This document shows, in pieces, positions 15,001-17,965 of a stretch of DNA of 64,000 nt. This DNA comes from Escherichia coli (GTDB taxonomy: Bacteria; Pseudomonadota; Gammaproteobacteria; Enterobacterales; Enterobacteriaceae): assembly GCF_030013205.1 (NCBI RefSeq), contig NZ_CP122648.1, one strand, 5' to 3'. Made by a program: the position numbers. How positions within the stretch are numbered: the first letter of the stretch is position 1; every line of letters begins with the position of its first letter.

Positions 15001-17965
15001 AGCAAGAACGGATGGCAAAACTTTCCGGAATGAAAGATACCTGGACGGTCACTGCCGTTAAGCCGAAATATCAGACCTATGTGGTGGTGATCGGTGAAAG
15101 CGCGCGTCGCGATGCCCTCGGTGCCTTTGGCGGTCACTGGGACAATACCCCGTTTGCCAGCAGTGTTAACGGTTTGATATTTGCTGACTACATTGCCGCC
15201 AGTGGCTCCACGCAGAAATCGCTTGGCTTAACGCTCAATCGCGTAGTCGATGGCAAACCACAGTTTCAGGATAACTTTGTCACCCTGGCAAATCGCGCGG
15301 GCTTCCAGACCTGGTGGTTTTCCAACCAGGGCCAAATCGGCGAATACGATACCGCCATCGCCAGCATCGCCAAACGAGCAGATGAAGTGTACTTCCTGAA
15401 AGAAGGTAATTTTGAAGCAGATAAAAATACGAAAGACGAAGCGTTACTGGATATGACCGCTCAAGTGCTGGCGCAAGAGCACTCGCAACCGCAGCTGATT
15501 GTTCTGCATCTGATGGGCTCGCATCCGCAGGCCTGCGACAGGACACAAGGCAAATACGAAACCTTTGTGCAATCGAAAGAAACGTCGTGCTATCTCTATA
15601 CCATGACGCAAACGGACGATTTACTGCGTAAGCTGTACGATCAGTTACGCAACAGCGGCAGCAGCTTCTCGCTGGTTTACTTTTCTGACCACGGTCTGGC
15701 CTTTAAAGAGCGCGGCAAAGACGTGCAATACCTTGCCCATGATGATAAATATCAGCAGAATTTCCAGGTGCCTTTTATGGTCATTTCGAGCGACGATAAA
15801 GCGCATCGGGTGATTAAAGCCCGCCGCTCTGCCAATGACTTCTTAGGCTTTTTCTCCCAGTGGACGGGAATTAAAGCGAAGGAAATTAACATCAAATACC
15901 CGTTTATATCTGAGAAGAAAGCCGGGCCGATATACATCACCAACTTCCAGTTACAGAAGGTGGATTACAACCATCTCGGAACCGATATTTTCGACCCGAA
16001 ACCTTAAAAACAAAAATCCGCCCCGAGAGGCGGATTTTTTATATCACCGAAGTGATTAGAAGCGGTAACCAACACCGGCAATCCAGGTGCCTACGTCAAC
16101 GCTACGAATACGGCTCTGCTCGTAAGAGAAGTCCAGAGCAACGTTTTCCATCGGGTTGAACTGCAGACCAGCACCGTAGGAGAAACCGTAGTCGCTGGTG
16201 TCGTGTTTGTAGGTCGGGTATTCAGTGGTCTGGAATTTACCATAACCCACACCCACTACACCGTAGATGCTTGCCCAGTCGTTAATGCGGTAAGCCGGAC
16301 CAGCAGTGATGCCGTAGTACTGGTTTTTGTTGTAGTCACCAGAGCTTGCAGTACGGCTTTTCTCGGTGTAAGTGAAAGAACCGATCACACCCAGCGGGCT
16401 GTTGTCTTCTTCATAGCGGTATTTCAGGTTGAAACCGCCCATTTTGTTCATTTGGCCCTGAGCGTCGCTCTGTGCGTAACCGCCAGTTACGGTAGAAGTC
16501 GCAGCTACGGAAGTACCTGCGGTGAAAGCCAGAACTGCGGCCAGTGCTGAAAGACATGCAATTTTTTTCATAACCACCTCAAATGTGATTCAAATAAGTC
16601 CTAAGTTTTAAATATATCAAAAATTAATGGGAAACTCTTCGCGATTTGTGATGTCTAACGGGCCATTTCATGTAACAGAACGTTTCCATACACCGCTATC
16701 CATCTAAATTTAAATCACTTTTTCAGAGAACTGCGTAAGTATTACGCATGTTTTCCCTGTCATTCATCCAGATTATTCCTAATCACCAGACTAATGATTC
16801 CATCAATCCTGGCGCATTTTAGTCAAAACGGGGGAAAATTTTTTCAACAAATGCTCAACCAGCATTGGGTATATCCAGTACACTCCACGCTTTACTTAGG
16901 TTTAGATATTTGTGGGAGAAAGGATGCCTGGTTCATTACGTAAAATGCCGGTCTGGTTACCAATAGTCATATTGCTCGTTGCCATGGCGTCTATTCAGGG
17001 TGGAACCTCGTTAGCTAAGTCACTTTTTCCTCTGGTGGGCGCACCGGGTGTCACTGCGCTGCGTCTGGCATTAGGAACGCTGATCCTCATCGCGTTCTTT
17101 AAGCCATGGCGACTGCGCTTTGCCAAAGAGCAACGATTACCGCTGTTGTTTTACGGCGTTTCGCTGGGTGGGATGAATTATCTTTTTTATCTTTCTATTC
17201 AGACGGTACCGCTGGGTATTGCGGTGGCGCTGGAGTTCACCGGAGCACTGGCGGTGGCGCTGTTCTCTTCTCGTCGCCCAGTAGATTTCGTCTGGGTTGT
17301 GCTGGCGGTTCTTGGTCTGTGGTTCCTGCTACCGCTGGGGCAAGACGTTTCCCATGTCGATTTAACCGGCTGTGCGCTGGCACTGGGAGCAGGGGCTTGT
17401 TGGGCTATTTACATTTTAAGTGGGCAACGCGCAGGAGCGGAACATGGCCCTGCGACGGTGGCAATTGGTTCGTTGATTGCAGCGTTAATTTTCGTGCCAA
17501 TTGGAGCGCTTCAGGCTGGTGAAGCACTCTGGCACTGGTCGGTTATTCCATTGGGTCTGGCTGTCGCTATTCTCTCGACCGCTCTGCCTTATTCGCTGGA
17601 AATGATTGCCCTCACCCGTTTGCCAACACGGACATTTGGTACGCTGATGAGCATGGAACCGGCGCTGGCTGCCGTTTCCGGGATGATTTTCCTCGGAGAA
17701 ACACTGACACCCATACAGCTGCTGGCGCTCGGCGCTATCATCGCCGCTTCAATGGGGTCTACGCTGACAGTACGCAAAGAGAGCAAAATAAAAGAATTAG
17801 ACATTAATTAAATTTACATTTCTGCATGGTTATGCATAACCATGCAGAATTTCTCGCTACTTTTCCTCTACACCGTCTTTATATATCGAATTATGCAAAA
17901 GCATATTTATTCCGAAAATTCCTGGCGAGCCAATAAATAAGAATTGTTCTTATCAATATAACTAA

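What the first reader, a model, noticed from the sequence alone, without database searches (positions are those of the whole stretch)
17821..17850. Perfect 30-bp palindrome downstream of rhtA
Seen in sequence: ttctgcatggttatgcataaccatgcagaa is exactly self-complementary, which is unusually long and perfect for an intrinsic terminator and lies upstream of the dps promoter region. It could act as a bidirectional terminator or as a protein binding site.
Basis: seen in the sequence. Interest (0 to 1): 0.25.

Follow-up and report, generated by a model that had tools for sequence, protein, structure and literature searches.

The report
Conserved hairpin ending rhtA mRNA
The perfect 30-bp palindrome just after the E. 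coli rhtA gene is real and far beyond chance, but it is most likely an ordinary RNA hairpin, conserved across enterobacteria, that ends and protects the rhtA transcript and shields the neighbouring dps promoter; the repeat itself has already been described in print.

Summary
The palindrome TTCTGCATGGTTATGCATAACCATGCAGAA exists at window 17820-17849, one base off the stated coordinates. It starts 8 nt after the rhtA stop and lies 222-251 bp upstream of the dps transcription start. It is the longest perfect palindrome in the window (about 6e-5 expected) and single-copy per E. coli genome.

In 69 of 80 Enterobacteriaceae loci a hairpin sits 2-16 nt after the rhtA stop, whatever the distance to dps. 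Its stem shows heavy compensatory change: 9 of 10 core pairs co-vary, with 25 different arm sequences. Single-side changes are mostly G.U on the rhtA sense strand (18 versus 3 A.C). This points to selection on an RNA stem-loop, not on a protein operator.

Outside Escherichia there is no U-tract, but the downstream flank is C-rich and G-poor, as published for Rho-terminated transcripts. E. coli alleles have a moderate U-tail, so a weak intrinsic terminator backed by Rho is likely there.

Long-read data list rhtA as a monocistronic unit. No 3' end is recorded at the site in the tables I could read, so termination at this exact position is inferred.

Antipov et al. 2017 already reported this 30-bp inverted repeat within a Dps footprint. 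The bidirectional-terminator idea is not supported. The finding is ordinary and of low interest.

The parts
16924..17811 (+). rhtA coding sequence (threonine/homoserine exporter), stop TAA at 17809-17811
   Evidence: ORF list; RefSeq annotation of identical or near-identical E. coli records. The MG1655 rhtA TSS 850130 corresponds to about window 16891.
17820..17849 (+). Perfect 30-bp palindrome, which in the rhtA 3' UTR forms an RNA hairpin (13-bp stem, UGCA loop)
   Evidence: sequence; RNA fold; cross-genus covariation and G.U bias on this strand; 0-2 of 30 changes within Escherichia versus 19-20 of 51 in the flank.
17850..17858 (+). Moderately U-rich tail (TTTCTCGCT; TTTTCTCGC in ST131-type strains)
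   Evidence: Tail score -3.97 (top 1.4% of window positions) and -4.46 for the variant, compared with -3.42 for the verified ompX terminator. It fails the simple rule of at least 5 T in 8.
17850..17935 (+). C-rich, G-poor tract downstream of the hairpin (rut-like; inferred Rho loading region)
   Evidence: The 78-nt window starting at 17840 has C/G = 2.38, against a window-wide 95th percentile of 1.86. Across 69 species C is about twice G for roughly 160 nt after the hairpin, with C>G in 75-94% of species per 40-nt bin. This matches the pattern in Dar & Sorek 2018.
18058..18071 (+). dps core promoter (-10 TATACT at 18058-18063, TSS at about 18071), the element that the hairpin would insulate
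   Evidence: SMRT-Cappable-seq dps TSS 848950, mapped with MG1655 = 867021 - window position. The palindrome then spans -222 to -251, matching Antipov's 216-281 footprint.
18110..18613 (+). dps coding sequence

Best explanation
The palindrome is transcribed as the first part of the rhtA 3' UTR. There it folds into a stable stem-loop that defines the 3' end of a monocistronic rhtA mRNA. The conserved, ancestral role is that of a 3' terminal hairpin of the kind found at Rho-terminated transcripts. Rho loads on the C-rich, G-poor RNA just downstream and stops RNA polymerase before or around the dps promoter. 3'-5' exonucleases then trim back to the hairpin, which blocks them. In E. coli the hairpin has additionally acquired a moderately U-rich tail (UUUCU, or UUUUCU in about 18% of genomes), so part of the transcription probably terminates intrinsically at the hairpin. 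The result is a hybrid terminator. The net effect is a stable rhtA message and insulation of the OxyR/sigma-S-controlled dps promoter from rhtA read-through. Shown here: the sequence, its position, conservation, covariation, strand bias, tail scores and flank composition. From the literature: rhtA is listed as a single-gene transcription unit. Inferred: the actual termination and protection at this site.
For: (1) Position: the hairpin starts 2-16 nt (median 8) after the rhtA stop in 69 of 80 Enterobacteriaceae loci. It stays there when the rhtA-dps spacer shrinks to 216-249 nt (Klebsiella, Raoultella) or grows to 405 nt (Buttiauxella sp. A111).
(2) Structure is selected, not sequence: 88.9% of cells are paired against 31-44% when the partner is slid; 12 of 13 pairs show double changes; the covariation score is 0.544 against 0.07-0.16 slid, and 0 of 500 shuffles reach it. 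RNAalifold independently predicts the 10-bp core, with 9 of 10 pairs compensatory. There are 25 distinct left-arm 10-mers, each matched by its own right arm.
(3) Strand: single-side changes are G.U on the rhtA sense strand in 18 cells against 3 A.C cells. By my reading of the table this is roughly 11 versus 3 independent events.
(4) Within Escherichia the palindrome shows 0-2 of 30 changes, and the E. albertii pair is compensatory. The adjacent 51 nt show 19-20 changes.
(5) E. coli tail scores are -3.97 and -4.46, in the top 1-2% of positions and at least as good as the ompX terminator tail.
(6) Other genera have no U-tail (median -2.35, background -2.08) but a C>G flank. This is the anatomy Dar & Sorek 2018 report for Rho-dependent transcript ends, and they also propose easy switching to intrinsic terminators by gain of U.
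(7) SMRT-Cappable-seq lists a unit from TSS 850130 containing b0813 only, with no b0813|b0812 unit.
(8) Klebsiella species that lost the ancestral stem carry unrelated GC-rich hairpins at the same place.
Against: No RNA 3' end is listed at the expected position (MG1655 minus strand, about 849160-849172) in Adams et al. 2021 Term-seq tables for three conditions, and rhtA is not in their bicyclomycin table. No high-confidence termination site appears there in the SMRT-Cappable-seq data. Low rhtA expression could explain both, but the function is therefore not demonstrated.

The simple terminator scan does not call the site. The stem is AU-rich (5 G-C pairs of 13) and has no upstream A-tract. The G.U versus A.C asymmetry rests on roughly 11 versus 3 independent events, which I estimate at p of about 0.06. 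Pseudocitrobacter and Trabulsiella have deleted the hairpin entirely, so it is dispensable in some lineages. A Dps footprint on this DNA has been published.
Confidence: 0.72

Rival explanations
1. DNA-level structural element of the dps upstream region. The palindrome, as duplex or extruded cruciform, is a preferred contact site for the nucleoid protein Dps and sets the topology of the dps promoter, contributing to positive autoregulation. This is the proposal of Antipov et al. 2017.
For: [quoted passage not shown] My mapping places the palindrome at -222 to -251. The perfect palindrome has an AT-rich centre, and its DNA hairpin is stable (-13 kcal/mol, z = -7.1).
Against: The element tracks the rhtA stop, not the dps promoter, when the spacer length changes. 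Lineages that deleted it keep an intact core dps promoter. Single-side changes favour G.U on the sense strand, which would be A.C mismatches in the opposite cruciform arm. In Melekhov 2015 the distal fragment of the dps regulatory region bound Dps less well than the proximal fragment. No palindrome mutant was tested, and Dps binding is largely non-specific.
Confidence: 0.12
2. Operator for a sequence-specific dimeric transcription factor that recognises TTCTGCATGG / CCATGCAGAA half-sites and regulates rhtA or dps.
For: The arm sequence is identical in Escherichia, several Citrobacter and Enterobacter species, and Lelliottia, while the flanks have diverged. The spacing between the 10-nt arms varies only between 8 and 10 nt. 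The three TGCA motifs lie 10 bp apart in E. coli, which can be read directly from the sequence.
Against: The arms are replaced by unrelated but still complementary sequences in Buttiauxella, Cedecea, Kosakonia, Raoultella and Leclercia, giving 25 distinct arms. G.U-type changes are tolerated. The site lies 3' of rhtA and about 220-250 bp upstream of the dps start, far from either promoter core. I recall no known E. coli regulator consensus that matches, but this was not tested against a motif database.
Confidence: 0.04
3. Bidirectional intrinsic terminator that also stops antisense transcription coming from the dps side.
For: A perfect palindrome folds equally on both strands: the hairpin is the same, and the minus-strand context MFE is -20.2 kcal/mol.
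Against: The tail on the opposite strand is ATGTAAATTTAATTA, scoring -2.33, which is background. There is no A-tract 5' of the stem on the sense strand. No gene converges here, since rhtA and dps are co-directional. The genuine bidirectional-type terminator nearby (16012-16039, AAAAA-stem-TTTTT) looks quite different. The G.U bias favours the sense strand.
Confidence: 0.04
4. Efficient stand-alone intrinsic (Rho-independent) terminator of rhtA, with no role for Rho or exonuclease trimming.
For: The E. coli tail scores (-3.97 and -4.46) are as good as or better than the ompX terminator tail, and the hairpin is stable. rhtA is monocistronic in long-read data.
Against: The hairpin is conserved in most genera without any U-tail (median -2.35), so U-tract-dependent termination cannot be the conserved function. 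The E. coli tail has only 4-5 U in 8 and is interrupted by C. No sharp 3' end is recorded at the site.
Confidence: 0.15

Closest known systems
3' terminal protective stem-loops of Rho-dependent transcripts (Dar & Sorek 2018, PMC6061677; Peters et al. model)
   Same: A stable stem-loop directly after the gene, with no U-tract and no upstream A-tract in most genera, and C-over-G enrichment in the DNA immediately downstream.
   Different: Rho dependence and exonuclease trimming are not shown for rhtA, and rhtA is absent from the bicyclomycin table I could read. The E. coli alleles do carry a partial U-tail.
Canonical intrinsic (Rho-independent) terminators
   Same: A hairpin a few nt after the stop codon, a loop of 4 nt, and in E. 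coli a U-enriched tail scoring in the top 1-2% of positions.
   Different: The stem is AU-rich (5 G-C pairs of 13) and unusually long and perfect. The tail is short and interrupted. There is no A-tract. The tail is missing in most other genera. No mapped 3' end is recorded.
REP (repetitive extragenic palindromic) elements
   Same: An extragenic palindrome in a 3' UTR that can stabilise upstream mRNA. REP elements, like this locus, are reported as preferred Dps contact sites.
   Different: It is single-copy, with a median of 1 place per genome in 5421 genomes. It is not part of a dispersed family and has no Rfam match.
Dps-bound inverted repeats in the dps regulatory region (Antipov et al. 2017, PMC5553809)
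   Same: It is the same object: the '30 bp inverted repeat' at the centre of the distal Dps footprint, 216-281 bp upstream of Pdps.
   Different: The published interpretation is a DNA structural element for dps autoregulation. The comparative data here tie the element to the rhtA 3' end and to RNA-level pairing.
Bidirectional terminator between ompX and opgE (window 16012-16039)
   Same: A perfect-stem hairpin in an intergenic region of the same window.
   Different: That terminator has A5 and T5 flanks, serves convergent genes, and has a mapped Term-seq 3' end. The rhtA palindrome has the reverse polarity of flanks (T-rich 5', A-rich 3' at the stem foot) and no convergent partner.

Membership tests
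Intrinsic (Rho-independent) terminator | Stable stem-loop shortly downstream of the stop codon on the sense strand | tested here: met
   A 13-bp stem with a 4-nt loop, 8 nt after TAA. The isolated hairpin is -18.0 kcal/mol and the 91-nt context -19.5 kcal/mol, z = -4.3. The stem has only 5 G-C pairs of 13.
Intrinsic (Rho-independent) terminator | U-tract of about 7-9 nt immediately 3' of the stem (E. coli alleles) | tested here: inconclusive
   The tail is UUUCUCGCU (4 U in the first 8) or UUUUCUCGC (5 in 8). It fails the simple scan, but its decay-weighted tail scores of -3.97 and -4.46 are in the top 1-2% of positions and exceed the ompX terminator tail.
Intrinsic (Rho-independent) terminator | U-tract conserved together with the hairpin in orthologous loci | tested here: not met
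   Across 69 loci the median tail score is -2.35 against a background of -2.08. Only 6% of loci score at or below -3.5 at the stem end.
Intrinsic (Rho-independent) terminator | RNA 3' ends mapped at the U-tract | tested here: inconclusive
   No 3' end is listed between MG1655 848852 and 850273 in Adams et al. Term-seq, and no high-confidence site in SMRT-Cappable-seq. Low rhtA expression may account for this. Other datasets' tables were not available.
Protective 3' stem-loop of a Rho-dependent transcript | Stable stem-loop lacking both the U-tract and the upstream A-tract | tested here: met
   This holds in most genera. The flanks at the stem foot are 5' U-rich and 3' A-rich, the opposite of terminator polarity.
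Protective 3' stem-loop of a Rho-dependent transcript | C-over-G enrichment (rut-like) immediately downstream | tested here: met
   Mean 19.7 C against 9.3 G in the first 80 nt. C>G holds in 88-94% of species in the first two 40-nt bins and 75-80% in the next two, reaching parity after about 160 nt. The E. coli C/G ratio is 2.38, above the 95th percentile of 1.86.
Protective 3' stem-loop of a Rho-dependent transcript | Read-through on Rho inhibition and 3' extension in pnp/rnb mutants | not testable with these tools
   rhtA is absent from the one bicyclomycin table available. The Dar & Sorek supplementary tables are not held.
REP / dispersed palindromic repeat family | Many copies per genome sharing a consensus | tested here: not met
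   One place per genome in 5421 genomes, one copy in the window allowing up to 3 mismatches, and no Rfam family match.
Palindromic operator of a dimeric transcription factor | Half-site sequence conserved among orthologous loci; changes not required to be complementary | tested here: not met
   There are 25 distinct arm 10-mers. 9 of 10 core pairs show compensatory double changes. Cis pairing is 9.8 of 10 against 7.7 of 10 when arms are swapped between species.
Bidirectional terminator | U-tract after the hairpin on both strands (A-tract 5' on the sense strand), usually between convergent genes | tested here: not met
   The opposite-strand tail scores -2.33, and rhtA and dps are co-directional.
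Cruciform-forming / Dps-bound inverted repeat | Protein contact or extrusion that depends on the palindrome | not testable with these tools
   A published Dps footprint covers the site, but no palindrome mutant exists. The comparative data do not require a DNA-level role.

The most novel reading that the evidence does not exclude
Dual use. Besides serving as the rhtA 3' hairpin, the Escherichia-specific extension to a perfect, AT-centred 30-bp palindrome lets the DNA extrude as a cruciform or be captured by Dps. Transcription-driven supercoiling from rhtA, or Dps abundance, would then be transmitted to the dps promoter 220-250 bp downstream. This would be a structural DNA switch overlaid on a terminator.
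Probability: 0.07. Interest if true: 0.45.

Novelty: already known. Interest (0 to 1): 0.12.

Why it matters
The significance is modest.

If the explanation holds, the element keeps read-through from the rhtA promoter out of dps. The expression of dps is tightly tied to OxyR, IHF and sigma-S.

It is also a clean natural example of the proposal by Dar & Sorek that terminator hairpins drift between Rho-dependent (tail-less) and intrinsic (U-tailed) forms. The same orthologous hairpin is tail-less in most genera, moderately U-tailed in K-12-type E. coli, and better U-tailed in about 18% of E. coli genomes through a single A->T change.

It cautions against reading the published Dps footprint and ChIP signal at this inverted repeat as evidence for a dedicated dps regulatory site.

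It is practically relevant to strain engineers who overexpress rhtA for threonine export, because read-through into dps could then occur.

Tried and rejected
(1) The simple promoter/terminator scan did not flag the palindrome. I replaced it with a decay-weighted tail score calibrated on real terminators in the window.

(2) An Rfam search at permissive E-value found nothing at the site. The nearby weak hits are ordinary terminator hairpins.

(3) A dispersed repeat or mobile-element origin is rejected, because the element is single-copy.

(4) I considered sigma-54 promoter, NtrC, NsrR and NikR-like site resemblances by eye and from memory and rejected them. The spacing or half-sites do not fit, and the centre and arms are not sequence-conserved across genera.

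(5) I searched Term-seq and other 3'-end tables. Adams 2021 has no entry at the site. TERMITe has no entry. SMRT-Cappable-seq gives only the operon-level result. The supplements of Dar & Sorek 2018, Choe 2022, Gruenberger 2022, Herzel 2022 and BacTermFinder are not held.

(6) Three literature searches for rhtA with terminator or 3'-end terms found nothing relevant.

(7) The search for homologous proteins with RhtA was meant to reach taxa where rhtA and dps are unlinked. It listed only relatives at 82% identity or more, from the clade already sampled, so the test of whether the hairpin travels with rhtA or with dps rests only on spacer-length variation and on the deletion lineages.

(8) My first Dps query was off by one base and failed. 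It was rerun.
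Full report
OBSERVATION

The 30-mer TTCTGCATGGTTATGCATAACCATGCAGAA is present and is exactly self-complementary. 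It occupies window 17820-17849, one base upstream of the coordinates given; the interval 17821-17850 is not a palindrome. It is the longest perfect palindrome in the 64-kb window. The next zero-spacer palindrome has 7-nt arms, and the window composition predicts about 6e-5 palindromes of this length. No second copy exists in the window, even allowing three mismatches.

CONTEXT

On the + strand the order is:
- opgE (14424-16007, + strand)
- ompX (16056-16577, - strand)
- rhtA (16924-17811, + strand)
- the palindrome
- dps (18110-18613, + strand)
- glnH (19017 onward, + strand)

The palindrome begins 8 nt after the rhtA stop codon. Using MG1655 = 867021 - window position, it corresponds to MG1655 849172-849201. 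That places it 222-251 bp upstream of the dps transcription start (848950).

The window is E. coli but not K-12: it is 100% identical to strain 118UI over 421 nt and 98.3% identical to a K-12-type strain. The locus is present once per genome in 5421 of 5426 complete E. coli genomes.

STRUCTURE

As RNA, the sense strand folds into a 13-bp stem with a UGCA loop. The 91-nt context has an MFE of -19.5 kcal/mol, z = -4.3 against shuffles. The opposite strand forms the same hairpin. As DNA the hairpin has an MFE of -13 kcal/mol, z = -7.1. A simple terminator scan does not call it, because the tail TTTCTCGC has only 4 T in 8. Rfam has nothing at the site.

COMPARATIVE EVIDENCE

A Dps-anchored scan of one genome per species returned 80 Enterobacteriaceae loci. 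After locating the rhtA stop and the dps start in each, 69 loci have a hairpin of at least 10 pairs starting 2-16 nt after the rhtA stop (median 8).

The hairpin keeps this position when the rhtA-dps spacer is 216-249 nt (Klebsiella, Raoultella) or 405 nt (Buttiauxella sp. A111). It is therefore anchored to rhtA and not to the dps promoter. Pseudocitrobacter and Trabulsiella have deleted the hairpin together with the distal spacer. There a full-length rhtA ends 115-130 nt before the dps ATG, and the core dps promoter remains. Some Klebsiella species carry unrelated GC-rich hairpins at the same spot.

MAFFT aligned 48 distinct hairpin segments with both arms ungapped. On that alignment:
- 88.9% of cells form standard pairs, against 31-44% when the 3' partner is slid by 1-3 columns.
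- 12 of 13 pairs show changes on both sides.
- The covariation score is 0.544, against 0.07-0.16 for the slid controls, and 0 of 500 shuffles reach it.
- RNAalifold independently predicts the 10-bp core, with compensatory changes in 9 of 10 pairs.
- There are 25 different left-arm 10-mers, for example TTCTGCATGG, TTTACCGTGG, TTTAATGCGG, TTCAGCATGA and TTTTGCCGGA. Each is matched by its own right arm: pairing is 9.8 of 10 in cis against 7.7 of 10 when arms are swapped between species.

The spacing between the core arms is 8-10 nt.

Where only one side of a pair has changed, the result is G.U on the rhtA sense strand in 18 cells. It is A.C, which would be G.U on the other strand, in only 3 cells. 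One row (K. spallanzanii) is visibly misaligned and contributes four of the G.U cells. By my reading of the table the count is roughly 11 versus 3 independent events, which I estimate at p of about 0.06, so I treat this as suggestive. It favours an RNA made from the rhtA strand over a cruciform or a duplex operator.

Within the genus Escherichia the palindrome differs at 0-2 of 30 positions, and the two changes in E. albertii are a compensatory C>T / G>A pair. The 51 nt just downstream differ at 19-20 positions.

WHAT KIND OF 3' ELEMENT

I scored the tails with a decay-weighted U score of the kind used by TransTermHP, as I recall that scheme, and calibrated it on the window itself.
- The K-12-type allele scores -3.97, in the top 1.4% of all window positions.
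- The allele with A->T at the last palindrome base scores -4.46. It is exact over 60 nt in 955 of 5420 genomes.
- The verified ompX terminator tail scores -3.42.
- Outside Escherichia the median is -2.35, close to the background of -2.08, and the stem foot is typically 5'-UAUU...AAUA-3', the reverse of terminator polarity.

In those same genomes the DNA after the hairpin is C-rich and G-poor. The first 80 nt hold on average 19.7 C and 9.3 G. C exceeds G in 88-94% of species in the first two 40-nt bins and in 75-80% in the next two, falling to parity after about 160 nt at the dps core promoter. In E. coli the 78-nt C/G ratio reaches 2.38, above the window-wide 95th percentile of 1.86.

This is the anatomy that Dar & Sorek 2018 describe for the steady-state ends of Rho-dependent transcripts. 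They report stable stem-loops without U-tract or A-tract, C-over-G enrichment downstream, and protection from PNPase and RNase II. They also suggest that such elements switch to intrinsic terminators simply by gaining uridines. The rhtA hairpin series looks like that switch caught in progress.

EXPERIMENTAL LITERATURE

SMRT-Cappable-seq (Yan et al. 2018) lists a transcription unit from TSS 850130 (reverse strand) that contains b0813 (rhtA) alone. It lists a separate dps unit from TSS 848950 and no b0813|b0812 unit. Transcription from the rhtA promoter therefore ends before dps is completed.

No precise 3' end is documented at the site. Adams et al. 2021 Term-seq tables list minus-strand ends at 848340, 848673 and 848852, and nothing further until plus-strand ends at 850273 and 850293. 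rhtA is also absent from their bicyclomycin table. The SMRT-Cappable high-confidence termination list, which requires at least 10 reads, has no site there either. Other datasets' tables were not available. Low rhtA expression is a plausible reason, but termination or trimming at this exact site remains an inference.

PRIOR DESCRIPTION AND THE DNA-LEVEL RIVAL

Antipov et al. [quoted passage not shown] They suggest that losing this contact could disturb promoter topology. A Pdps-gfp reporter fell 1.5-fold in a dps mutant.

That reading is not excluded, but several points weigh against it:
- No palindrome mutant was tested.
- Dps bound the distal fragment of the dps regulatory region less well than the proximal one in Melekhov 2015.
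- The element follows rhtA rather than dps.
- Lineages without it keep the dps promoter.
- The pattern of substitutions fits RNA pairing.

A sequence-specific operator is unlikely because the arm sequences are replaced wholesale. A bidirectional terminator is unlikely because the opposite-strand tail is at background (-2.33), there is no A-tract, and no gene converges on the site.

VERDICT

The bidirectional and protein-site alternatives are not favoured.

The most likely mechanism is a conserved RNA stem-loop that marks and protects the 3' end of a monocistronic rhtA mRNA. In most genera Rho would terminate on the C-rich flank. In E. coli a partial intrinsic-terminator activity has been added. 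The element thereby insulates the dps promoter.

Confidence is about 0.7 that the selected function is an RNA 3'-end hairpin. The split between intrinsic and Rho-dependent termination in E. coli is unresolved. This is an ordinary element of a well-known kind at a well-studied locus and has already been noticed in print, so interest is low.

Noticed in passing
window 16012-16039: AAAAATCCGCC...GGCGGATTTTT is a perfect hairpin with A5/T5 flanks between convergent ompX and opgE, a textbook bidirectional-type terminator. The Adams et al. Term-seq 3' end at MG1655 851011 (+) maps to about window 16010.
   Followed up: partly
window 18651-18686: This is the dps terminator hairpin (GCGGCTTCCTGACAGGAGGCCG + TTTTGTTTTG). 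The Term-seq 3' end at 848340 maps to about window 18681. The sub-threshold Rfam hit to ctRNA_p42d here (26.9 bits against a gathering score of 50) is just this hairpin.
   Followed up: partly
window 17891-17904: TTATGCAAAAGCAT, 61 nt downstream, resembles the palindrome centre TTATGCATAACCAT (12 of 14 as a direct repeat, and 86% complementary as an inverted repeat with 17826-17839). Its significance is unknown.
   Followed up: no
window 18047-18060: Inverted repeat ATAGC-CGGT-GCTAT overlapping the dps -10 hexamer (TATACT, 18058-18063). From memory it resembles the MntR operator reported at dps. This was not tested here.
   Followed up: no
window 9429-9459: The second-longest perfect-stem hairpin in the window (13-bp arms, 5-nt loop: TCAGTAGCCCTGACCATATCAGGGCTACTGA). 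It lies between convergent ORFs 7968-9227 (+) and 9467-11059 (-) and is probably their shared terminator.
   Followed up: partly
L018, L020 (Pseudocitrobacter); L050, L064, L073 (Trabulsiella), about 2370-2501: The rhtA stop lies only 115-130 nt from the dps ATG. The hairpin and about 180 nt of distal spacer are deleted, so rhtA transcription would run straight into the core dps promoter in these genera.
   Followed up: partly
L010 (Marinobacter sp. BW6, 703-nt contig) and L080 (Streptomyces polyasparticus, 573-nt contig): Tiny contigs in non-enterobacterial assemblies encode Dps that is 92-97% identical to E. coli Dps. They are most likely enterobacterial contamination of those assemblies.
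   Followed up: no
L064 (Trabulsiella odontotermitis strain 01), 1687-2367: rhtA matches only as two separate segments (aa 1-77 and 160-295), which suggests a disrupted gene or pseudogene in this strain.
   Followed up: no
window 17849 (E. coli population): A common polymorphism changes the last palindrome base A->T. This breaks the outermost pair and lengthens the T-run to TTTT. The exact 60-mer is in 955 of 5420 complete genomes, including ST131. In the three variant strains fetched (SCU-122, Ec15103, ST131 4224) it co-occurs with a T->A change in the last codons of rhtA.
   Followed up: partly
window 19797-19817: CCTCTCCCCGCCGGGGAGAGG is a 10-bp-stem hairpin just after glnH. The Term-seq 3' end at MG1655 847200 maps to about window 19821, assuming no indels relative to K-12.
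   Followed up: no
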